Of a stretch of DNA of 57,842 bases, positions 20,952-36,913 are shown piece after piece. A program made the position numbers and the translations under genes. The stretch is from Candidatus Binataceae bacterium. Lineage in GTDB: Bacteria; Desulfobacterota; Binatia; Binatales; Binataceae. The notes beneath the pieces were generated by a model. The model was not told where the DNA came from and made no database searches. It was given only the letters and a program-made list of their open reading frames with translations. Where the stretch lies: contig DATJUF010000243.1 in assembly GCA_035502655.1 (NCBI GenBank), forward strand, positions 1-57,842, read 5' to 3'. How positions within the stretch are numbered: the first letter of the stretch is position 1; each line of letters opens with the position of its first letter.

Positions 20952-21911
20952 CTAAGCGGCCCTGGCAGCATTGATATAATAGCTGGCGACTTCGCGGCCG
21001 ATAAGCTCATTTTGTGCGGCCCAGGCGGAAGGCTCGGCCACGGGCCATAACACGAACTTGTCGAGGCCGACGTGGATATACTCGTCGAGGCGCGCGATGA
21101 TGTCCTCGGGTGAACCGTAAATCGTGCCTTTGGCGAAAGCGCTGGCGTTGGGCCCGAGCGACTTCAGCACGGGCTGCATGTCTTCCATTGCGCGTTCGCG
21201 CGATGGACCGAGACGGCAAAGAAAGATGAGGCCGGCCTCGATGTGAGCGTTGACGCGGCCCGCCTCCGAAGCATAGCGGCGCACGGTGGCCATATTGGCG
21301 GCGAATTCGGCGGGGCTCTGGAACGAGGCGAAATAGCCGTCGGCGAATCGCCCGGTACGTTTCAGGGCGGCGTCGGATTTGCCGCCCACCCATAGGTCGA
21401 TGGTGCCGTGGTCATTGTTGGTGCGAGCGACGGGGCGGGGCTCAATCGAGACATTGTCGAAATTGAAATACTTGCCGTGAAAGCTGGCTTTAGGTTCGGT
21501 CCAGACTTTGCGAAGAATCATTATGCCCTCGTCGAGGCGGCGGCCGCGGCCTTCGGTGGGAATGCCGACGGCGGCGTAATCGTCCAGGTTGGCGCCCGTC
21601 CCGACGGCCATCACGATGCGGCCCTTCGACAGATAGTCGAGGGTCGCAAAGGACTTGGCGGCAACCAGCGGGTGGCGAAGATTCAGCAGGAAAACGCTCG
21701 GGCCGAGGCGGATGCGCGAGGTGCGGGAGGCGAGCAGGGCGAGAGTCGCGACGACATCGAGTTCGGGAGAGGGTGCGAGCAGATGATCGGACAGCCAGAA
21801 GGAATCAAGGCCCCATTCTTCGGCGCGCTCGGCGACACGGACAATGGTGTCAGATTCCGGCATGCCGAGACGGAAGAGCCCAAACCCAACACCGACTTTA
21901 ATACGCTTCAT
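20952..21911 (-). CDS. LLM-class (luciferase-like) flavin/F420-dependent oxidoreductase
   Basis: Start at MKRIKVGVGFG. ...GLDSFWLSDHL...LDYLSKGRIVMAVGTG... is typical of the luciferase-like monooxygenase family. Confidence 0.85.
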   Translation of the reverse strand: MKRIKVGVGFGLFRLGMPESDTIVRVAERAEEWGLDSFWLSDHLLAPSPELDVVATLALLASRTSRIRLGPSVFLLNLRHPLVAAKSFATLDYLSKGRIVMAVGTGANLDDYAAVGIPTEGRGRRLDEGIMILRKVWTEPKASFHGKYFNFDNVSIEPRPVARTNNDHGTIDLWVGGKSDAALKRTGRFADGYFASFQSPAEFAANMATVRRYASEAGRVNAHIEAGLIFLCRLGPSRERAMEDMQPVLKSLGPNASAFAKGTIYGSPEDIIARLDEYIHVGLDKFVLWPVAEPSAWAAQNELIGREVASYYINAARAA

Positions 21912-23792: not shown

Positions 23793-24569
23793 ATGACTAT
23801 CATTCCAGTTTCGCAGTTATCGGACAATTACGCGTATCTAGTTGTAGACGAAGCGAGTAAGCAATGCGGGGTGGTGGACTGTTCGGAGGCGGGCAAAGTA
23901 CTCGACGAAGTCAAGCGTAATGGATTGAAGTTGGTAGCAGTGCTGCCGACCCATTACCATTTCGATCATGTCGGCGGGAATGAGGATTTGGTCAAGGCGG
24001 TGCGAGGGCTGCGTGTCTATGGCGCACGCGGCGAGAATGGGCGGATACCGGCGCAGACTGATGAAGTCGATGATGGCAGCACGGTCGAGATTGGCGAGTT
24101 GAAGGGGCGCGTGATTGGGATTCCGGCGCATACGAATGGGCATATCGCATACTACTTTCCGCGGCTGGAAGCAGTATTCACAGGCGATACATTATTTATC
24201 GGGGGATGCGGCCGGGTGTTTGAAGGCAAAGCCGAAACGATGGTCGCGTCGCTCAACAAGCTGGCTGAGCTGCCGGATAGTACAAAGATTTACTGCGGAC
24301 ACGAATATACTGAGAAGAATTTGCGCTTCGCGCTGACGCTCGAACCAAACAATGCAGAGCTCAAGGCGAAGCATGAGTGGGCGGTCAAGCAGCGAGCAGC
24401 GGGGCATTTTACAGTGCCATCGACGATTGAAGAAGAGAAGCTGATCAATCCATTTCTACGGACGGATAGTCCCGAGTTGCGGTCGAATCTAAGAAAAGTT
24501 GCGCCGGCGATTGGCGATGATCCGGTCGCGATATTTGCGAAGACGCGGGAGCTAAAGGACAGATTCTAG
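23793..24569 (+). CDS. gloB: hydroxyacylglutathione hydrolase (glyoxalase II)
   Basis: IIPVSQLSDNYAYLVVDE...LPTHYHFDHVGGN...PAHTNGHIAYYF...VFTGDTLFIGGCGRVFEG...YCGHEYT..NL.FA...EP.N. Confidence 0.92.
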   Translation: MTIIPVSQLSDNYAYLVVDEASKQCGVVDCSEAGKVLDEVKRNGLKLVAVLPTHYHFDHVGGNEDLVKAVRGLRVYGARGENGRIPAQTDEVDDGSTVEIGELKGRVIGIPAHTNGHIAYYFPRLEAVFTGDTLFIGGCGRVFEGKAETMVASLNKLAELPDSTKIYCGHEYTEKNLRFALTLEPNNAELKAKHEWAVKQRAAGHFTVPSTIEEEKLINPFLRTDSPELRSNLRKVAPAIGDDPVAIFAKTRELKDRF

Positions 24570-24712: not shown

Positions 24713-25531
24713 GTGGCTGTCCAGCCATTATGCTATAGACCGGATCAGGTGGTGGACGAATACATCGTTGAGCCGGACGTGATTCCGTGGCGCGAGGGGC
24801 GGATCGCAGGCATCACGTTCAAGTGCCAGGTACTTATGAACGGCGCGGACGGCGGTCCCGAGGCTTTGCGCTTCCGCTTCGATCCATGCCCTTCGGTCTT
24901 TGCGCACATGCATTTGACCTCGCAGTTTCAGTTGCTCCTCAATGGCCGAATGGATTTCCCCAAATCGACGATGAAACTGCGGGCAATCGCAGTCCATTAT
25001 ACGGACCACAATTTCCCCTACGGGCCGTTCGCTGTTGGCGACAGTCACGACATGCTGGTGCTGCATCCCAAACAGGGCGGCCTGATCAGCATGGCCGATC
25101 ATGACGCGCGACGCCAAATCAATCTTAAAGGACGCCATTTCTATGGCTCTGCGGCTGCTACCGATTGGATAAACCAGCCCGAGTTTCGAGGCGTGCGCTG
25201 CAAGCCGCTGATTCCACCGTCATCCGGACCTTATGCCGTAATACTCGAATGTCCGCCGCACGCCTGCTTGAATCTTCCGCCCGCGCCGTATGGCCGCTAC
25301 GAACTGGTGCTGGCCGGCTCTGCGTCAGTTTCAGGCCGCACGCTGCTTCCTCCCGGCCTCCGCTACGTACGCCATGATTCTGATGATGTGAGCACCATCA
25401 CTCCCATGGAAGCCGGGCGAGAGAGCGCCACTTTGATGCTGCTGGCGTTCGACAACGACGCATGCGAAGGTGGCCTGACTGGCGACCGCTTATCAGTTGC
25501 CGCGGCAGAAGCCATCGAGCGCGCGATTTAG
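24713..25531 (+). CDS. hypothetical protein (possibly a double cupin-like beta-barrel); first gene of the selenoprotein operon
   Basis: 272-aa ORF with a GTG start. No motif recognised with certainty. It lies 20 nt upstream of the next gene. Confidence 0.6.
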   Translation: MAVQPLCYRPDQVVDEYIVEPDVIPWREGRIAGITFKCQVLMNGADGGPEALRFRFDPCPSVFAHMHLTSQFQLLLNGRMDFPKSTMKLRAIAVHYTDHNFPYGPFAVGDSHDMLVLHPKQGGLISMADHDARRQINLKGRHFYGSAAATDWINQPEFRGVRCKPLIPPSSGPYAVILECPPHACLNLPPAPYGRYELVLAGSASVSGRTLLPPGLRYVRHDSDDVSTITPMEAGRESATLMLLAFDNDACEGGLTGDRLSVAAAEAIERAI

Positions 25532-25550
25532 TTTAATAGCGGAGGCTCTT

Positions 25551-26213
25551 ATGCTAAACGAAAATGCCACCGCTCCGTTGCCTGTAGTCGTCTTTGCCGA
25601 CTTCATTTGCCCATATTCCTATATCGCGCTCGACCAGATGGACGATCTGATGCGCGACTATAATATCGAATTGCTTTGGCGCCCCCATTGGCTGCATCCG
25701 GAAGTGCCACCCGCCGGGGCGCCGATTCCATCCGCTGCAACAGCCGGCCGCCGCGCGCAAACGCTCGCATGGCTTAAGGAAATGGCGCCCGAACGTACTG
25801 ACCGGATGCACTTTCCCGATCGCATCCAATTCAGCCTGTTTGCCTTCGAGGCACTGGAATTCGCCCAGGACCATGGGCTCGCGCTACCCTTCAAGACGGC
25901 GGTATTCGAGTCATTGTGGATCGAAGGGCGCGATATCGCGCAATTCGCGACGCTGCAGGCCGCTGCCGAAAAAGCTGGCCTCGATAGCGAGGAACTCGGC
26001 CGGGCGCTCTCGGCGCAGCGCTATCGCAAGCGCGTTCACGACGCTCTGCAACTGGCGCATGATGCGGGTGTTACCAAAACTCCGACTTTTGTCCTGGGCC
26101 GCTATCGTATCGCCGGATGGCACTACTATGAGGTCTTTCAGACTGTGATGGAAAAGCAAAACGTGCCGCTTCGCGCGGCCGTTGCCAACTCACTTCCACC
26201 GGTGGAGCACTGA
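25551..26213 (+). CDS. DsbA-family (FrnE/HCCA-isomerase-like) thioredoxin-fold protein, CPYS active-site variant
   Basis: GGAGG RBS followed by ATG. PVVVFADFICPYSYIALDQM... and a C-terminal ...GVTKTPTFVLGRYRIAGW are typical of DSBA-like thioredoxin domains. The motif is C-P-Y-S, not CxxC. Confidence 0.8.
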   Translation: MLNENATAPLPVVVFADFICPYSYIALDQMDDLMRDYNIELLWRPHWLHPEVPPAGAPIPSAATAGRRAQTLAWLKEMAPERTDRMHFPDRIQFSLFAFEALEFAQDHGLALPFKTAVFESLWIEGRDIAQFATLQAAAEKAGLDSEELGRALSAQRYRKRVHDALQLAHDAGVTKTPTFVLGRYRIAGWHYYEVFQTVMEKQNVPLRAAVANSLPPVEH

Positions 26214-26217
26214 TGCG

Positions 26218-27801
26218 ATGGCCTCGCTAGCGGCGTTTTCTCTCAACGATCTCGATGGAACGGCACGCATCTTTCCGAATGGCAAAGTGACTCTGCTGTG
26301 CTTTGTCCGCGAAGAATGCGAGACCTGCCATCTCTCAATGCCAGTGATCGAAGCGGTTTATCGCGCTTACGGCGGCGTGATCGATGTATGGGTGGCCGGC
26401 CAGGAGGACAATCAAAAGCTCCGTGACCGTTATCAGTTGACGGTTCCAATCCTCGATGACACCGGACTCAAAGTCTCCTTCAACTATAAGGTCCAGATTG
26501 TTCCGACGATCATTCTCGCCGGCGAATCGGGCGGCGAAATCGTACGCTGGGAAGCCTTTCATAAGGGCGACTGGCAGGACCTGATCGCCCGCCTATCGCA
26601 ACTTACGAATCTGCCGCCTCCCGGGATCGAATGGGACAAACTTCCGGCGCTCCGTCCCGGATGCGGTTCAAAGTCCGTCGAGCCTGGTATTTTCGAGCGT
26701 CTGGCAGCAGAAGCTGAGGGCAGTCCACTGCGCGCTCGGCAGATCGAGATCGCTGAGCGCGACGACCCGTTCGAGTTCATGTTCGATCAAGGCCTTACCG
26801 ACGGGCTTCCGGTGATCCCGCCTACGCCGGAACGAGTTATCCGGATGCTCGCCGGGACGCGCCGCAGCCCGCAGGAGGTTGCCGGTACCTGCGCGCCCAA
26901 TTACGCCCCGGTGACGATCGAGAAAATCGCGATTAACGCGGTGATGGCTGGTTGCAAGCCCGAGTATATGCCGGTCGTAATCGCCGCCACCGAAGCGCTC
27001 TGCTCGCATGAGTTCAACGCGCATGCGCTCGTCTCGACTTATGGTCCCTCGCCGGTGATCGTGGTCAATGGGCCGATCCGCAATCGTATCGGCATGAACA
27101 TGGGAATCAACGTACTCGGCCATGGCAATCGCGCCAACGCCACGATTGGCCGCGCGATCAAGCTGATCCTGCGTAACCTCGGCGGACTCCGGCCTGGTGA
27201 GATCGAGCGCGCGGCGCTGGGTTCGCCCGCCAAGTACGGCGCCTGCTACCCCGAATTCGAGGAGCGCAGTCCCTGGGAGCCACTACACGCCGAGCGCGGC
27301 TTTGACCGCAACGATAGCGTTGTTACGCTCTTTCAGCTCGAAGGCTCGCCCCATCAAATTGCCGATCAGACTTCGCGCACCGCACGTTCGCTGGCGGGCA
27401 GCCTCGGACTCGGGATGGAATGCGGATGGCACCCGAAGACCCATAGGGTCGGCGACGCGCTACTCGTAATCTCCCCCGAGCATGCCGATACGCTCTGGCG
27501 CGACCGCTGGAGCAAAGACGACGTGCGCAACCGTATTCAGGAGATCACCTCGCGCCCGTTGCGTGAGTTATTGCCGACTGAAGATTATGGAGGGCTCGGC
27601 GCGATGCCTGAGCAGGTGGCGCTTGAGCGTGGCCGTACACCTGAGCAACTCAACCGCCTGATGCCCAAGTTCAAGAGTCCGAAAAATATTCACATAATCG
27701 TTGCTGGCGGTCCCGCCGGAAAATGGTCCTCGGTCATCAATGGCTTCGGGGACGCGTCCGTATCGGTGCCGGTCAGCCGCAAAATCGAGGAGGCCGTCTG
27801 A
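26218..27801 (+). CDS. thioredoxin-like (TlpA/redoxin, CETC) domain fused to an uncharacterised ~390-aa Cys-containing domain
   Basis: Start ATG 26218, 4 nt after the dsbA-like stop. The N-terminus ...VTLLCFVREECETCHLSMPVIE... is redoxin-like. The rest (FMFDQGLTDGLPVIPPTPERV...INAVMAGCKPEYMPVV...GHGNRANATIGRA...) matches no family I can name. Its stop overlaps the next ATG. Confidence 0.8.
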   Translation: MASLAAFSLNDLDGTARIFPNGKVTLLCFVREECETCHLSMPVIEAVYRAYGGVIDVWVAGQEDNQKLRDRYQLTVPILDDTGLKVSFNYKVQIVPTIILAGESGGEIVRWEAFHKGDWQDLIARLSQLTNLPPPGIEWDKLPALRPGCGSKSVEPGIFERLAAEAEGSPLRARQIEIAERDDPFEFMFDQGLTDGLPVIPPTPERVIRMLAGTRRSPQEVAGTCAPNYAPVTIEKIAINAVMAGCKPEYMPVVIAATEALCSHEFNAHALVSTYGPSPVIVVNGPIRNRIGMNMGINVLGHGNRANATIGRAIKLILRNLGGLRPGEIERAALGSPAKYGACYPEFEERSPWEPLHAERGFDRNDSVVTLFQLEGSPHQIADQTSRTARSLAGSLGLGMECGWHPKTHRVGDALLVISPEHADTLWRDRWSKDDVRNRIQEITSRPLRELLPTEDYGGLGAMPEQVALERGRTPEQLNRLMPKFKSPKNIHIIVAGGPAGKWSSVINGFGDASVSVPVSRKIEEAV

Positions 27802-28334
27802 TGAGAATTCTTGACCCTACCGACGAACGCGTTCCGGTCCGGCGCTCGCTGGCTCCCCGTCCCGAGGGCGTGATGGGCACCGTCGGGCTGCTCGACATCA
27901 ACAAGGCGCGTGGCGACGTGATGCTTAAGCATGTGCAGCAGCGCCTGAATGAGCTGCTGCCCAACGTCGAAGTCAAACATTATCGCAAGCTGACGCCGGC
28001 CCGGCCCGCCGCTGACGAACTACGCCAGCAGATGCTGAAGGAGTGCGACTTCGTTATCGAAGGCCTCGCCGATTGAGGGGGCTGCATAACGTGCAGTTTG
28101 CACGACACAGTATGGTTCGAGAATAACGGCAAACCCACGGTCGTGATCGCCACCGACGTGTTTGTCGATGCCGCCGAGGCTCAATCATCCGCGCTGGGCT
28201 TGCCTGAAGCGCCGCGGGTCTTTGTCCCTCATCCGATTCAGGACGCCACTGACGAGGAGATTCGTGCGAAGGGTGACGCCGTCATCGAGCAGGTGATTCG
28301 CGCGCTTACAATGAACAAATCCTCGTCGCGGTAA
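27801..28334 (+). CDS. selenoprotein, UGSC-like family (Sec at codon 92 encoded by in-frame TGA 28074-28076)
   Basis: ATG 27801 follows GGAGG and overlaps the upstream stop (cTGATGa). Track ORFs 27723..28076 and 28098..28334 are in the same frame, separated only by TGA plus 7 sense codons. Read-through gives ...CDFVIEGLAD-U-GGCITCSLHDTVWFENNGKPTVVIATD... A SECIS-like hairpin lies directly downstream. Confidence 0.8.
28090..28104 (+). promoter_or_regulatory. bacterial SECIS-like hairpin
   Basis: CGUGCA-GUU-UGCACG. The loop G and U fall at +23/+24 counted from the U of UGA. The UGCA/UGCA apical stem resembles the E. coli fdhF SECIS (UGCA-GGUC-UGCA). Confidence 0.6.
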
Positions 28335-28347
28335 AACCCGGTGAGAG

Positions 28348-28369
28348 GCGTTCCGCGAAGGCGGGACGC
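28348..28369 (+). terminator. stable GNRA-type tetraloop hairpin after the selenoprotein gene (attenuator or partial terminator?)
   Basis: GCGUUCCGC-GAAG-GCGGGACGC (9 bp with one G.U), 14 nt after stop 28334. A short CUUUU lies a few nt further on. Confidence 0.35.
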
Positions 28370-28416
28370 GCTCCGACGCAGGCTTTTGAAACATCAGGCA
28401 GGAGGCCGGCGGTTTA

Positions 28417-29496
28417 ATGAAATTCGGGCTTCACTATCAACTCCCATGCACCGCTGACCAATCGCCGGTCCAGCGTTATCGCGACACGATTGAGCAGGCA
28501 GTGCACGCCGAGGGCCTGGGTTTCGAGTCCGTATGGCCGGTCGAACAGCATTTCAACGCCAGCCTCTCGATCATGCCCTCGCCGCTGCTGATGCTCGCGG
28601 CGATTGCTGAGCGCACACGTACGCTCCGCCTCGGTATCGGGATTATCCTGCTGCCGCTATCGCATCCTCTGCGCGTGGCTGAGGAAATTGCAACGCTCGA
28701 CGTCATCAGTAATGGCCGTGTCGAGTTTGGCATCGGCCGCGGGGCGATTCCCAAGCATTTCCGGGGCTTCGGTATTCCGATTGCCGAAAATCGGGACCGT
28801 TTCATTGAGGGTTTAGAGATAATCCGTCAAGCATGGACCAGTGATGGGTTTTCTTACCATGGCCGCTTTTTCGATTTAGAGCGCATCTCCGTCGTGCCCA
28901 AGCCGGTCCAGCAGCCGCATCCACCGATCCGCGTTGCGACTAACAGCGAGGAGACATTCGAGGTCATGGGCCGGATGGGCCTGCCGATCTGCGCTGCGTC
29001 GCAGGTCAATCCATTTCACCGAATCAAGCGCTTCCTGGTGACGTACCGTGAAGCGCGCAAGGCCGCCTGTCATCCCGCTGCTGGCCCGGAGGACGTCTCG
29101 ATTCTGATGCCGCTCTACGTTGGCACGAGCGCCGCTCAAGTGCGGCGCGAAATGGAACCGAGCATCAAGTATTTCCTGAGCACAGCCACCTCGTTGTTTG
29201 GATCGGGAGCTCCGCTGCCGGGCGCCTCGCGATCCAGCGGATCGCAACCGGACGCCACGGTGCGCCTCAAGCAGACGCTGGAACGTCTCGCAAGCATGAC
29301 CTACGAGCAGGTATGCGAGCGGATGGCGATCTTCGACACTCCCGAGGCATGCATTGAGCGGCTGCAAGGTTACCGCGAGGATTTCAAGATGGGCCGCGTG
29401 ATCTGCTGGTTCAATCCGGGCGGCCAAGTGCCGCATCAACAGGTCCTGCGTAGTATGGAGCTGTTCGCCGCTAAGGTAATGCCGCATTTCGCCTAG
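28417..29496 (+). CDS. LLM-class flavin-dependent oxidoreductase
   Basis: AGGAGG RBS. MKFGLHYQLP...GLGFESVWPVEQHF...LDVISNGRVEFGIGRG is the luciferase-like monooxygenase signature. Confidence 0.88.
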   Translation: MKFGLHYQLPCTADQSPVQRYRDTIEQAVHAEGLGFESVWPVEQHFNASLSIMPSPLLMLAAIAERTRTLRLGIGIILLPLSHPLRVAEEIATLDVISNGRVEFGIGRGAIPKHFRGFGIPIAENRDRFIEGLEIIRQAWTSDGFSYHGRFFDLERISVVPKPVQQPHPPIRVATNSEETFEVMGRMGLPICAASQVNPFHRIKRFLVTYREARKAACHPAAGPEDVSILMPLYVGTSAAQVRREMEPSIKYFLSTATSLFGSGAPLPGASRSSGSQPDATVRLKQTLERLASMTYEQVCERMAIFDTPEACIERLQGYREDFKMGRVICWFNPGGQVPHQQVLRSMELFAAKVMPHFA

Positions 29497-29610: not shown

Positions 29611-30249
29611 TTACGCGGCGTCCGGCTGATGCTCTGGACGCGCTTTCTCGAAAGCCTCGACCTTGCTGCATTCGGCGCAGATCCGGCGAATGGTTGGGAA
29701 AGCGGCCATCTCCACGCCTGATCGTTCTGCGTTATAAACCTGCGGCACGATGAAAATGTCGGCCAGCGTCGGCTTATCGCCATGACAGAAGCGACCCGTC
29801 GCCGGCGAACCCGCCAGCATCGCTTCGATCGAGCGAAAACCCTCGGTCATCCAATAGCGGCTCCATTCCGCGCGCTGCTCTTCGGTGGCATGGAACACCC
29901 GCCCGAGGTAGGCTTGCGCGCGCCCACCCTGGATCGGATGGATCTCGCATGCGACCGCGAGCGCGATAGCGCGGACCCGCGCCCGTCCCGCCGGGTCGCT
30001 CGGCAGGATCGGCGGCTGCGGATGGGTTTCCTCCAGGTACTCGCAAATCGCCAGTGACTGGCCGATCACATTGCCATTATCTTCGAGCGCAGGAACCCGG
30101 CCCTGAGGATTAAGCGCCTCGTAGGCAGGCGCGCGTGATTCGCCACGCGCCAGATTGATTGAAATATTCTCATAGCTGAGACTCTTGAGATTCGCGACGA
30201 TCCGCACCCGGTAACTCGCCGACGACCGGAAATAGTTGTAGAGCTTCAT
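29611..30249 (-). CDS. maiA: maleylacetoacetate isomerase (zeta-class GST)
   Basis: MKLYNYFRSSASYRVRIVANLK...NPQGRVPAL...GQSLAICEYLEE is the zeta-GST SSxxxRVRI motif. Confidence 0.88.
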   Translation of the reverse strand: MKLYNYFRSSASYRVRIVANLKSLSYENISINLARGESRAPAYEALNPQGRVPALEDNGNVIGQSLAICEYLEETHPQPPILPSDPAGRARVRAIALAVACEIHPIQGGRAQAYLGRVFHATEEQRAEWSRYWMTEGFRSIEAMLAGSPATGRFCHGDKPTLADIFIVPQVYNAERSGVEMAAFPTIRRICAECSKVEAFEKARPEHQPDAA

Positions 30250-35926: not shown

Positions 35927-36913
35927 TCATCGCACTTTCGGCAGAATGTCCTCCTTTAGCCTTATCAGATCGGTCATTGTTTTCGCTGTGGGCACACCCT
36001 TAAATGGCGGCCACAGCAGCGGAAGCGTCAGGCCCGCCTCCTGGTAACGCTTGAGGTTGTCTACAAGCTGCTGCGAAGTTCCAGTCATCGAAGGTGTCAG
36101 CTTCCCTCTTGGAGTCTGATCCGTTTTTTCGCTCGTGATCTCGAAAAACAGCATGCTCGCGATTTCGAGGCCATCCATTGGGCGCGAACTGCCGATTGCT
36201 TCGAGTTCCTCTTTAATCGCCGACCGCCACTTCGTGATCTCTTCGGGTGTGTCCTGTATTCCGATCCAGCCCGCCAGCCCATATTTGGCGACCCGTTTCG
36301 CCGCGATCTTCGGTACGCCAAGCCCTCCAAAAAAGATCGGCGGGTGAGGCTTCTGAATTGGCTTTACCCCAAAGCCGCATTTCGGAAACGAGGCGAACTC
36401 GCCGTGATATTCGAAGAGTTCCTGAGTCCAGACACCCTGCATTATCTCGATAGTTTCGATCACGTGTTTGTTGCGTCTTTCGTAAATGTGCGCGGCGCTC
36501 GCTGCCTCGAACTCCTCGGGCATCCAGCCGGTTCCGACACCTACGTTGACCCTGCCTTCCGAAAGATGATCCCAAGTCGCGATCTCCGCCGCCAGGACTC
36601 CTGGGGCGCGATAGGGTGTGTCGATCACGCTGACACCGAGCCTGATTTTCTTCGTGATGGCAGCCAGGTACGGAATCAGCGGCAGCCCGTGAAGGAACTC
36701 GCCTCTCGCAGCTACTGGCAGTGAACGAGGAAACTCTTTCATGAAGCCGAATGGCTTGCGCAACTCCTGGCGGTCCGAGGCTTCCGGAACCACGATACGA
36801 TCCAGCGTCCAGATGGAATCGAACTCCAACTGCTCGGCGAGGCGGGCGAGATCGACGATCTCACTGACGGTTATCTTGTCCCTGAAGTTTGGCAGGTATA
36901 ATGCCAGTTTCAT
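35927..36913 (-). CDS. LLM-class F420/flavin-dependent oxidoreductase
   Basis: MKLALYLPNF...LEFDSIWTLDRIV...DHLSEGRVNVGVGTGW. Confidence 0.85.
   Translation of the reverse strand: MKLALYLPNFRDKITVSEIVDLARLAEQLEFDSIWTLDRIVVPEASDRQELRKPFGFMKEFPRSLPVAARGEFLHGLPLIPYLAAITKKIRLGVSVIDTPYRAPGVLAAEIATWDHLSEGRVNVGVGTGWMPEEFEAASAAHIYERRNKHVIETIEIMQGVWTQELFEYHGEFASFPKCGFGVKPIQKPHPPIFFGGLGVPKIAAKRVAKYGLAGWIGIQDTPEEITKWRSAIKEELEAIGSSRPMDGLEIASMLFFEITSEKTDQTPRGKLTPSMTGTSQQLVDNLKRYQEAGLTLPLLWPPFKGVPTAKTMTDLIRLKEDILPKVR

What the first reader, a model, noticed from the sequence alone, without database searches (positions are those of the whole stretch)
24713..29496. Tightly packed five-gene operon that looks like an uncharacterised thiol/selenol redox system
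- **Seen:** five same-strand genes have spacers of 19, 4, -1 and 82 nt.
- **The five genes, in order:**
  1. An unknown 272-aa protein.
  2. A DsbA-like protein with a monothiol CPYS motif.
  3. A redoxin(CETC)-fusion protein.
  4. The Sec protein (UGGCITC).
  5. An LLM flavin oxidoreductase.
- **Seen:** three consecutive products carry thioredoxin-type active-site motifs (C-x-x-S, C-x-x-C, U-x-x-C).
- **Inference:** this suggests an electron or chalcogen relay feeding, or fed by, the flavoenzyme. I know of no characterised pathway with this composition, so it is the best candidate for a novel system in the window.
Basis: inference. Interest (0 to 1): 0.7.

Follow-up and report, generated by a model that had tools for sequence, protein, structure and literature searches.

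The report
Conserved selenoprotein pair with unknown partner enzyme
The five genes are really there, but only two form a unit conserved across bacteria: a selenocysteine protein of the known but uncharacterised "UGSC" family and a thioredoxin-fused partner whose large domain has no detectable known relative. Two more genes are a lineage-specific add-on, and the flavin enzyme is probably a chance neighbour.

Summary
**Observation: confirmed.** Five + strand genes have spacers of 19, 4, -1 and 82 nt. The motifs are CPYS, CETC and an in-frame UGA (UGGC) followed by a conserved SECIS-like hairpin.

**Interpretation: partly supported.**
- **Core pair (g3 + g4).** g4 is a UGSC-family selenoprotein (NF041046/PF24696), catalogued since 2007-2008 with no known function. 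g3 is a ResA-like thioredoxin domain fused to a ~380-aa domain ("Cdom").
  - Cdom has no Pfam, NCBIfam or PDB sequence match, and no PDB fold match better than TM 0.28.
  - UGSC is present in 70 of 80 genome loci found with g3, directly downstream in about 64 of them, always with TGA.
  - g3/Cdom sits directly upstream in 61 of 66 metagenome loci found with UGSC.
  - About 27 of the top 150 Cdom cluster representatives are fused to a UGSC domain, in either order.
  - selA-selB-tRNA-Sec flank the pair in about 25 loci.
- **Accessory pair (g1 + g2).** The metal-cupin-like g1 and DsbA/FrnE-like g2 travel with Cdom/UGSC only in Binataceae/Chloroflexi-type lineages. This holds even where the partner is a UGSC::Cdom fusion without the thioredoxin domain.
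- **LLM gene (g5): probably not part.** It is rarely adjacent elsewhere, and the window itself holds three LLM paralogues.

**Best reading:** a cytoplasmic, dithiol-driven two-component selenoenzyme of unknown substrate. It is a lineage variant of a catalogued but unstudied system.

The parts
24713..25531 (+). g1: cupin-like protein (Cupin_7/ChrR-like N-terminal half). The start is probably 24752 (259 aa). Lineage-specific accessory gene.
   Evidence: Pfam Cupin_7, 34.7 bits. The NCBI protein P0281 is 100% identical and 259 aa. Invariant residues H65, H67, Q71, Q73, H95, D98, H99, H112, H118 and C38 across 113 homologues. Found upstream of g2 and Cdom/UGSC in every relative examined.
25551..26213 (+). 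g2: cytoplasmic DsbA/FrnE-like protein with the monothiol motif CPYS (codons 25608-25619). Lineage-specific accessory gene.
   Evidence: PF01323, 7.6e-25. Best PDB sequence match is FrnE, 2e-10. The motif is CPYS in the window clade but CPYC in homologues at 57-65% identity.
26218..26634 (+). g3 N-terminal ResA/TlpA-like thioredoxin-fold domain with CETC (26317-26328).
   Evidence: Weak AhpC-TSA/Redoxin/ResA sequence matches. Foldseek on the AF2 model gives TM 0.77-0.83 relative to ResA-type targets. C34 and C37 are invariant; the motif is CxTC in 79 of 80 loci.
26635..27801 (+). g3 C-terminal part. It begins with the conserved PGCGS segment (Cys149 at 26662-26664), which is found only in thioredoxin-fused forms. 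The ~340-aa core 'Cdom' follows: an uncharacterised catalytic-looking domain with conserved Cys246 (26953-26955) and Cys343.
   Evidence: No Pfam, NCBIfam or PDB sequence match. AF2 model pLDDT 86.8, pTM 0.87; best PDB fold hit E 4e-3, TM 0.23-0.28. 5223 clusters at 50% identity match it. Family-wide invariant residues. The PGCGS segment has pLDDT below 50 when the thioredoxin domain is left out but 81-95 in the full-length model.
27801..28334 (+). g4: UGSC-family selenoprotein, 177 aa, with Sec92 encoded by TGA at 28074-28076. The motif here is U-G-G-C-I-T-C-S-L-H-D.
   Evidence: NF041046, 150.6 bits against a cut-off of 125; PF24696, 3e-45. U92, C95, C98, H101 and D102 are invariant among neighbours of thioredoxin-fused Cdom proteins. 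TGA at this codon in 70/70.
28090..28104 (+). SECIS-like hairpin: stem CGUGC/GCACG, loop AGUUU, beginning 13 nt after the UGA.
   Evidence: Five pairs are kept in 66/66 sequences, with G-C changed to G-U in 13 and to A-U in 2. Synonymous codon constraint at codons 97-101.
28348..28369 (+). GC-rich hairpin (9 bp, GAAG loop) 14 nt after the g4 stop codon. It may mark the 3' end of the transcription unit or stabilise the mRNA.
   Evidence: a strong hairpin of different sequence sits at the same place in L081, L083 and L085-L089. It has no U-tract, so the terminator scan did not flag it.

Best explanation
The locus is a four-gene, lineage-specific version of a widespread two-component selenoenzyme.

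**The universal core.** A ~350-aa uncharacterised domain (Cdom) works with a ~175-aa UGSC selenoprotein. Here Cdom is fused behind a ResA-like thioredoxin domain to form g3.

**Proposed mechanism (inferred).**
1. Cdom binds the unknown substrate. Its family-wide invariant Arg305, Asn307, Arg312, Glu346, Cys246 and Cys343 look like an active site.
2. Sec92 of UGSC is the attacking nucleophile.
3. Cys95, three residues on, resolves the intermediate to a selenenylsulfide.
4. The CxTC dithiol of the fused thioredoxin domain re-reduces it. In other lineages a DsbA-like CPYC protein or a ferredoxin:thioredoxin-reductase-like domain appears to take this role.

**Accessory genes.** In Binataceae/Chloroflexi-type lineages a metal-cupin-like protein (g1) and a DsbA/FrnE-like protein (g2, here monothiol CPYS) are added upstream. 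They probably prepare or pass on a thiol-linked substrate or product.

**The LLM gene.** g5 is a neighbour, not a component.

**Shown versus inferred.** Shown: composition, conservation, gene fusions, Sec decoding and linkage to selABC. Inferred: reductase chemistry, direction of electron flow and the roles of g1 and g2. Unknown: the substrate.
For: **Forward synteny.**
- In 80 genome loci found with g3, across Chloroflexota, Binatia, Alpha-, Beta- and Gammaproteobacteria, Acidobacteriota, Myxococcota, Gemmatimonadota, Acidimicrobiales and a spirochaete, UGSC is present in 70 loci.
- It lies within 153 nt downstream on the same strand in 64 loci.

**Reverse synteny.** In 80 metagenome loci found with UGSC, Cdom is directly upstream in 61 of the 66 with at least 1.2 kb of upstream sequence.

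**Gene fusions.** Among the 150 best Cdom cluster representatives there are 21 UGSC-Cdom fusions, about 6 Cdom-UGSC fusions and 24 Trx-Cdom fusions. One protein is UGSC-Cdom-FeThRed_B.

**Sec usage.** TGA at the Sec codon in 70/70, and a conserved SECIS-like hairpin.

**Linkage to the Sec machinery.** selA, selB and tRNA-Sec lie next to the pair in 21 of the 91 loci held at that point, plus 4 of the 80 metagenome loci for selA/selB.

**Redox-partner domain.** The thioredoxin domain has an invariant CxTC and a ResA-like fold.

**Accessory genes.**
- g1-g2 precede g3-g4 in all 10 close-relative contigs that reach that far.
- At 56-59% g1 identity, g1-g2 precede a Sec-containing UGSC::Cdom fusion that lacks the thioredoxin domain, and there g2 carries CPYC.

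**Cellular location.** The N-termini printed show no obvious hydrophobic signal-peptide-like stretch. This was read by eye; no predictor was run.
Against: - No biochemical data exist for any component. All 8 papers in the held library that mention the UGSC-containing protein only catalogue it.
- The UGSC fold could not be modelled, because the structure-prediction cap and input rule prevented it. Placing Sec at an active site rests on motif logic alone.
- Cdom has no informative structural relative, so calling it 'substrate-binding' is inference.
- Five UGSC genes had no Cdom neighbour, for example L147.
- The third Cys (C98) is invariant next to thioredoxin-fused forms but is replaced in fused forms (DCGSCTSW in P0226, CUGSCTPA in L092). 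A metal or cluster site in the window's subfamily is therefore not excluded.
- Neighbourhoods outside the pair are heterogeneous and give no substrate clue.
Confidence: 0.6

Rival explanations
1. All five genes form one operon and one pathway, in which three CxxS/CxxC/UxxC proteins relay electrons or a chalcogen to or from the LLM flavoenzyme.
For: - All five genes are on the same strand, with an 82-nt gap before g5.
- The LLM gene follows UGSC again in L083, with 89% identity.
- LLM genes lie near Cdom/UGSC in L094, L156 and L157.
Against: - The LLM is absent after UGSC in L081 and L086-L088.
- An LLM lies somewhere in only 3 of 80 genome loci and 4 of 80 metagenome loci, upstream or downstream and on either strand.
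- The window has three LLM paralogues in 58 kb, so chance adjacency is likely.
- A GC-rich hairpin follows the UGSC stop in all close relatives, whatever gene comes next.
- g5 reaches no specific NCBIfam cut-off.
Confidence: 0.1
2. g3 + g4 is a general antioxidant or repair system with no dedicated small-molecule substrate, such as a Sec-dependent peroxidase or a protein disulfide or sulfoxide reductase. Cdom would mainly act as a scaffold.
For: - The N-terminal domain touches the AhpC-TSA threshold (26.4 bits against 26).
- Neighbours outside the pair vary, as expected for a housekeeping function.
- The family is abundant in oxic ocean and freshwater samples (PMC2398784).
Against: - Cdom is large and has a dense set of invariant polar residues (R305, N307, R312, N320, E346, D195, T203, T274), which is more typical of an enzyme pocket.
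- Most Cdom proteins have no thioredoxin domain (88 of 150 stand alone).
- The thioredoxin domain resembles ResA/TlpA-type disulfide reductases more than peroxiredoxins.
Confidence: 0.17
3. The pair handles a metal, a metalloid or selenium itself.
- **Metal or cluster site:** U-x-x-C-x-x-C of UGSC, with Cys246/Cys343 of Cdom, would bind a metal or an Fe-S/Se cluster.
- **Selenium trafficking:** the pair would pass selenium towards SelD, which would explain the linkage to selA-selB-selC.
For: - The U/C-x-x-C-x-x-C spacing followed by H-D is invariant next to thioredoxin-fused forms.
- selA-selB-tRNA-Sec lie next to the pair in about 25 loci.
- The weak best fold hits include class I (Fe-S) fumarate hydratase and selenophosphate synthetase.
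Against: - The third Cys is not kept in fused family members.
- The fold hits are at noise level (TM at most 0.28, probability at most 0.44).
- No selD was seen in the one sel-linked locus inspected, and no selD-like ORF cluster was common among neighbours.
- Linkage of sel genes to their client selenoprotein explains the adjacency more simply.
Confidence: 0.13

Closest known systems
UGSC-containing protein / UGSC family (seleno)protein (NF041046, PF24696; Zhang & Gladyshev, PMC1976440 and PMC2398784)
   Same: - g4 scores above the curated cut-off.
- It has Sec at the family position, a SECIS-like hairpin, and the conserved C-x-x-C-S-x-H-D and HPIQD motifs.
- The family is among the most abundant selenoproteins in GOS samples, and a fusion to an unnamed 'Unknown_1' domain was reported.
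   Different: - The motif here is UGGC (UGAC or UGSC in the closest relatives) rather than UGSC, and ITC rather than T[TS]C.
- In the held library the family has no assigned function or partner.
- The systematic pairing with Cdom, the linkage to selABC and the cupin/DsbA add-on were found here, not taken from the literature.
ResA/TlpA-type thiol-disulfide oxidoreductases (thioredoxin fold, CxxC)
   Same: The g3 N-terminal domain has the fold (TM 0.77-0.83 relative to the target) and a CxxC motif like that of ResA (CEPC).
   Different: - It scores far below the ResA and StoA family cut-offs (32 against 170 bits).
- No obvious signal peptide or membrane anchor is visible in the sequence (by eye).
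- It is fused to a 380-aa domain and carries an extra conserved PGCGS segment.
Glycine reductase and D-proline reductase (GrdA/GrdB, PrdA/PrdB): dithiol/thioredoxin-driven selenoenzymes with a U-x-x-C or C-x-x-U redox pair (from general knowledge)
   Same: The logic is the same: a small Sec subunit, a larger substrate-specific subunit and a thioredoxin-type reductant, with Sec used almost obligatorily.
   Different: - No sequence or fold similarity was detected. UGSC gave no GRDB Pfam hit even at E up to 10, and Cdom gave no hit in the PDB fold search.
- The organisms are mostly aerobic heterotrophs, not amino-acid-fermenting anaerobes.
- This is an analogy, not membership.
FrnE (Deinococcus radiodurans cytoplasmic DsbA-like oxidoreductase) and the DsbA / GST-kappa / HCCA-isomerase superfamily
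   Same: g2 belongs to PF01323, and its best solved relative is FrnE (2e-10). No signal peptide is apparent.
   Different: The active site is CPYS rather than CPWC or CPYC. The resolving Cys is lost in the window clade only.
Luciferase-like monooxygenases (PF00296)
   Same: g5 is a clear member of the family (1.7e-64). Its best solved relative is 7bip (2.5e-43).
   Different: It reaches no subfamily cut-off, and it is not conserved with the cluster.

Membership tests
UGSC family (seleno)protein (NF041046 / PF24696) | Profile score above the curated cut-off over the full length | tested here: met
   150.6 bits against a cut-off of 125, covering profile positions 4-147 of 147. PF24696 gives 154.8 bits against 25.
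UGSC family (seleno)protein (NF041046 / PF24696) | Sec (or Cys) in the motif U-G-S-C | tested here: inconclusive
   U and the C at +3 are present, but the motif is U-G-G-C. Close relatives have UGSC, UGAC or UGGC. The Sec-Cys spacing is kept; the name-giving Ser is not.
UGSC family (seleno)protein (NF041046 / PF24696) | In-frame UGA decoded as Sec: a SECIS element is present and Sec machinery is in the genome | tested here: inconclusive
   A SECIS-like hairpin is conserved in 66/66 sequences with codon constraint. However, the 58-kb window holds no selA, selB or tRNA-Sec, and the rest of the MAG could not be examined.
Bacterial SECIS | Stem-loop starting about 11-16 nt after the UGA with G-U in the apical loop | tested here: met
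   The stem starts 13 nt after the UGA and the loop is A-G-U-N-U. No Rfam family reached threshold.
ResA/TlpA thiol-disulfide oxidoreductase | Thioredoxin fold with a CxxC motif | tested here: met
   Foldseek gives E 1e-8 and TM relative to target 0.77-0.83. CETC is present, and the motif is CxTC in 79 of 80 loci.
ResA/TlpA thiol-disulfide oxidoreductase | Score above the NCBIfam ResA or StoA cut-off | tested here: not met
   32.2 bits against 170, and 21 against 210.
DsbA/FrnE family (PF01323) | DSBA domain above the gathering score | tested here: met
   88.2 bits against 25.6. FrnE matches at 2e-10.
DsbA/FrnE family (PF01323) | Redox-active CxxC dithiol | tested here: not met
   The motif is CPYS in the window and its 79-85% identical relatives. 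It is CPYC in homologues at 57-65% identity.
Cupin_7 (ChrR-like cupin, PF12973) | Domain score above the gathering threshold | tested here: inconclusive
   The whole protein scores 34.7 bits against 27, but no single stretch passes on its own. The precomputed Pfam hit is marked 'faint' in most relatives.
Luciferase-like monooxygenase (PF00296) | Domain score above the gathering threshold | tested here: met
   218.6 bits against 27.9. No NCBIfam subfamily cut-off is reached.
Glycine/proline reductase selenoproteins (GRDB, PF07355) | Sequence or fold similarity to GrdB/PrdB or PrdA/GrdE | tested here: not met
   37 UGSC members gave no GRDB Pfam hit even at E up to 10. The Cdom model found no related PDB fold.

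The most novel reading that the evidence does not exclude
Cdom + UGSC is a previously unrecognised class of selenocysteine-dependent two-component enzyme.
- Its catalytic fold has no solved relative.
- It is driven by interchangeable thiol-redox modules: a fused thioredoxin domain, a DsbA-like protein or an FTR-like domain.
- It is abundant in oxic ocean, freshwater and soil bacteria.
- In many Alpha- and Betaproteobacteria it is the client with which the whole selA-selB-selC machinery is co-inherited.

The Binataceae four-gene form, with a metal-cupin and a monothiol DsbA, would be a specialised pathway built on this core.
Probability: 0.4. Interest if true: 0.75.

Novelty: new variant of a known kind. 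Interest (0 to 1): 0.55.

Why it matters
The UGSC-containing protein is one of the most abundant prokaryotic selenoproteins in ocean and freshwater metagenomes. It has stayed 'function unknown' for nearly twenty years.

**What this analysis adds**
- UGSC almost always comes with one specific partner domain, often as a single fused polypeptide.
- The partner family is large (over 5,000 clusters at 50% identity) and has no Pfam model and no solved relative.
- The selenocysteine machinery is often co-located with the pair.

**Why that makes the question testable**
- Natural Cys-form fusions can be expressed without Sec machinery.
- Cultured carriers exist, including Hyphomonas and Sulfitobacter.
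- The two proteins can be co-purified.
- The work can be narrowed to four genes, because the LLM gene can probably be left out.

Tried and rejected
- **Homologue search for UGSC.** It returned only 10 proteins, because gene callers truncate at the UGA. Full-length sequences were rebuilt from the loci instead.
- **Foldseek with full-length g3.** It returned only thioredoxin-fold hits. The Cdom-only model gave no hit with E below 1e-3.
- **Profile searches against PDB sequences.** UGSC, Cdom and g1 all gave nothing.
- **Pfam at E up to 10.**
  - For UGSC, only a weak DUF116 hit appeared, in 5 of 37 members. This is probably motif-driven, so I discarded it.
  - For 45 stand-alone Cdom proteins, nothing recurrent appeared.
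- **hhalign of UGSC against the g3 thioredoxin domain and against Cdom.** No relation was found.
- **'Unknown_1' in PMC2398784, Figure S1A.** It is held only as an image, so its identity with Cdom is likely but unverified.
- **ORF1/ORF2 next to selBC (PMC8124441).** I considered whether these are g3/g4. They are described as restricted to Alphaproteobacteria and tied to fdoGHI clusters, so probably not.
- **De novo clustering of neighbour ORFs in the 80 genome loci.** Beyond SelA and SelB, no third partner was consistent. The commonest were SDR, acyl-CoA dehydrogenase and CoA-transferase, each in 18 loci or fewer.
- **Promoter and terminator consensus scans.** They were uninformative: 0 promoter-like sites, and terminator-like sites at shuffle level.


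Full report
**1. The observation**

| Gene | Coordinates |
|---|---|
| g1 | 24713-25531 |
| g2 | 25551-26213 |
| g3 | 26218-27801 |
| g4 | 27801-28334 |
| g5 | 28417-29496 |

- The spacers are 19, 4, -1 (TGATG overlap) and 82 nt.
- g4 contains an in-frame TGA at 28074-28076. Read through, it gives ...EGLAD-U-GGCITCSLHD....

Pfam and NCBIfam results:

| Gene | Match |
|---|---|
| g1 | Weak Cupin_7 |
| g2 | DSBA, 7.6e-25, with motif CPYS |
| g3 | Weak AhpC-TSA/Redoxin/ResA-like match over residues 1-110 only, with motif CETC |
| g4 | UGSC family (seleno)protein: NF041046, 150.6 bits (cut-off 125); PF24696, 3e-45 |
| g5 | Luciferase-like monooxygenase, 1.7e-64; no subfamily cut-off reached |

- The window is a whole 57,842-nt contig of a Candidatus Binataceae MAG. 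The NCBI protein for g1 is 100% identical but 259 aa long, so g1 more likely starts at 24752.
- The window carries no selA, selB or tRNA-Sec.

**2. The UGA is a Sec codon**

- All 70 UGSC homologues found beside g3 relatives have TGA at the aligned codon, in the motif LAD-U-GSC-T[T/S]-C-S.
- A hairpin starts 13 nt after the UGA (stem CGUGC/GCACG, loop AGUNU; window 28090-28104). It is kept in 66/66 sequences, with G-C changed to G-U in 13 and to A-U in 2.
- The codons that form the hairpin are constrained beyond what the protein needs. Ser99 is AGT in 61/61 and Cys98 is TGC in 65/66, whereas Ser94 and Cys95 use mixed codons.

**3. What is conserved**

*From g3 outwards*
- g3 has more than 7,800 homologues of the same length.
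- In 80 genome loci from at least eight phyla, UGSC is present in 70. It lies within 153 nt downstream on the same strand in 64.
- In those loci g1 and g2 are found in 0 of 80. An LLM is found in 3 of 80, never adjacent and always on the opposite strand.

*From UGSC outwards*
- Starting from UGSC in metagenomes, g3/Cdom is directly upstream in 61 of the 66 loci with enough upstream sequence.
- Five loci are orphans, for example L147, which lies between a dCTP-deaminase-like gene and secA.

*Neighbour clustering and sel genes*
- De novo clustering of neighbour ORFs found only SelB and SelA as recurrent partners.
- selA, selB and tRNA-Sec lie immediately next to the pair in 21 of the 91 loci held at that point.
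  - In Alphaproteobacteria the order is selA-selB-tRNA-Sec-g3-UGSC.
  - In Burkholderiales and in L090 the order is g3-UGSC-selA-selB-tRNA-Sec.
  - selA and selB also flank the pair in 4 of the 80 metagenome loci.

**4. Gene fusions**

- The C-terminal ~380 aa of g3 (Cdom) matched 5,223 clusters at 50% identity.
- Architectures among the 150 best representatives:

| Architecture | Count |
|---|---|
| Stand-alone Cdom | 88 |
| Trx-Cdom | 24 |
| UGSC-Cdom | 21 |
| Cdom-UGSC | about 6 |
| Tandem Cdom | about 7 |

- One protein is UGSC-Cdom-FeThRed_B.
- Thirteen UGSC-Cdom proteins start just after the UGA, and six Cdom-UGSC proteins stop at ...A[LI][AG]D. These are gene calls truncated at the Sec codon, so they are inferred Sec forms.
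- Eight were called full length. About five of these carry a Cys form (DCG[SNT]C).
- Fusions in both orders, together with two-way synteny, show that Cdom and UGSC act together.
- The 2008 GOS paper mentioned a 'UGSC/Unknown_1' fusion (PMC2398784). Its figure is not readable here, but Unknown_1 is probably Cdom.

**5. The local add-on**

*Close relatives (g3 86-90% identical)*
- The order g1-g2-g3-g4 is kept in every contig that reaches that far: L081-L083, L085-L089, L097 and L098.
- The outer flanks differ between contigs (IDO, DUF885 and others).
- g5 follows only in L083.

*Relatives at 67-69% g3 identity*
- g1 and g2 are absent in L084, L090 and L091.

*g1 homologues at 56-59% identity*
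- They are again followed by a DsbA-like gene.
- That gene is then followed by a Sec-containing UGSC::Cdom fusion that lacks the thioredoxin domain (L092-L094).
- L094 also has a stand-alone Cdom + UGSC pair just upstream of g1.
- In those loci the DsbA-like protein carries CPYC. Only the window clade, whose Cdom has its own CxTC domain, has CPYS.

*What g1 and g2 look like*
- g1 has invariant residues that look like cupin metal ligands: H65-x-H67, Q71/Q73, H95, D98, H99, H112 and H118. It has no solved sequence relative.
- The best solved relative of g2 is the cytoplasmic DsbA-like FrnE.

**6. The LLM gene**

- It is not conserved with the cluster (section 3).
- The window holds two more LLM paralogues, at about 21.1-21.9 kb and 36.3-36.9 kb. 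Chance adjacency is therefore plausible.
- A 9-bp GC-rich hairpin (28348-28369) follows the g4 stop codon. Hairpins of different sequence occupy the same place in all close relatives, whatever gene follows.
- I therefore treat g5 as a neighbour. Co-transcription by read-through is not excluded.

**7. What the proteins are**

*g3 and Cdom*
- The AF2 model of g3 is confident (pLDDT 88.6). Its N-terminal domain is a ResA/TlpA-type thioredoxin fold.
- Cdom modelled alone is also confident (pLDDT 86.8, pTM 0.87). Against the PDB it finds nothing better than E 4e-3 and TM 0.23-0.28; the top hits are class I fumarate hydratase and Toblerone-fold hydrolases.
- No Pfam, NCBIfam or PDB sequence profile matches it.
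- Family-wide invariant residues are D195-G-L-P...P-P-T203, A-G-C246-x-P, T274, N-G-P286, G-x-G-x-R305-x-N307-x-x-x-G-R312, N320, C343, E346 and W353. This pattern looks like an active site.
- The conserved PGC149GS segment occurs only in thioredoxin-fused forms. It is well ordered only when the thioredoxin domain is present.

*UGSC*
- U92, C95, C98, H101, D102 and H144-P-x-Q147 are invariant among neighbours of thioredoxin-fused forms.
- Only the U/C-x-x-C pair persists in the fused forms.
- UGSC shows no profile similarity to the thioredoxin domain and no PDB sequence relative.

**8. Mechanism**

*Shown*
- A two-component unit, Cdom + UGSC.
- Sec is used almost always.
- The attached thiol-redox modules are interchangeable: a thioredoxin domain, an FTR-like domain or an adjacent CPYC DsbA-like protein.
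- No obvious signal peptide is visible in the N-termini (read by eye).

*Inferred*
- This is a dithiol-driven reductase-type enzyme.
- Sec92 attacks a substrate held by Cdom.
- Cys95 resolves the intermediate to a selenenylsulfide.
- The CxTC domain re-reduces it.
- This matches the logic of glycine and D-proline reductase (from general knowledge), but no homology to them was found.
- The substrate is unknown, and the roles of g1 and g2 are speculative.

*Rivals*
- A general antioxidant or repair system.
- A metal, cluster or selenium-handling role.

**9. Novelty**

- All 8 papers in the held library that mention the UGSC-containing protein only catalogue it as function unknown.
- The locus is therefore a member of a known but uncharacterised selenoprotein system, in a lineage-specific variant: UGGC, CPYS and the cupin + DsbA add-on.
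- The following were derived here:
  - the systematic Cdom partnership;
  - the scale of the fusions;
  - the selABC linkage;
  - the lack of any solved fold relative.
- These are what make the finding moderately interesting.

Noticed in passing
window 21075-21851 (-), 28417-29496 (+), 36281-36913 (-): There are three luciferase-like monooxygenase paralogues within 58 kb. This very high LLM density makes chance adjacency to any cluster likely.
   Followed up: partly
window 1-57842; switch near 24-26 kb: GC skew is +0.1 to +0.2 from 1 to 24 kb and about zero or negative afterwards, so the cumulative skew peaks right at the cluster. This could reflect a replication-related or gene-strand switch.
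   Followed up: no
L085 4067-4835; L087 711-1479; L088 355-1123: The g1 cupin gene is split by a frameshift at residue 114/115 in three contigs from different samples, while g2-g4 stay intact. This could be pseudogenisation of g1 in one strain or a shared assembly error.
   Followed up: no
L027 7836-7931 (likewise L021, L024, L025, L028, L031 and others): A tRNA-Sec gene lies about 40-150 nt upstream of the g3 start in 18 alphaproteobacterial loci, directly after selB. Together these form a compact selA-selB-selC-g3-UGSC island.
   Followed up: partly
P0248 (549 aa, metagenome protein): This protein is a fusion of UGSC (the part after the UGA), Cdom and a ferredoxin:thioredoxin reductase catalytic-chain domain (PF02943, 1.4e-16). 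It suggests that some versions draw electrons through an Fe-S/disulfide module.
   Followed up: no
L026 9626-10723; L054 10855-11904; L094 4379-5464: Some loci carry an extra stand-alone copy of Cdom beside the g3-UGSC pair. L094 has two complete Cdom/UGSC systems flanking g1-g2.
   Followed up: partly
P0121 (180 aa): The only full-length UGSC homologue returned by the protein search has Gly at the Sec position (ADGGSC). The TGA was probably translated as Gly by a gene caller using genetic code 25.
   Followed up: no
window 23793-24569 (+) and 29611-30249 (-): The cluster is flanked by a glyoxalase-II-like gene (hydroxyacylglutathione hydrolase type) and a zeta-class GST/maleylacetoacetate-isomerase-like gene; both identities were judged by eye from the translations. 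Neither flank recurs in the close relatives.
   Followed up: partly
window 28348-28369: A 9-bp GC-rich hairpin with a GAAG loop follows the UGSC stop codon. It has no U-tract, so the terminator scan missed it. Equivalent hairpins occur in all close relatives.
   Followed up: partly
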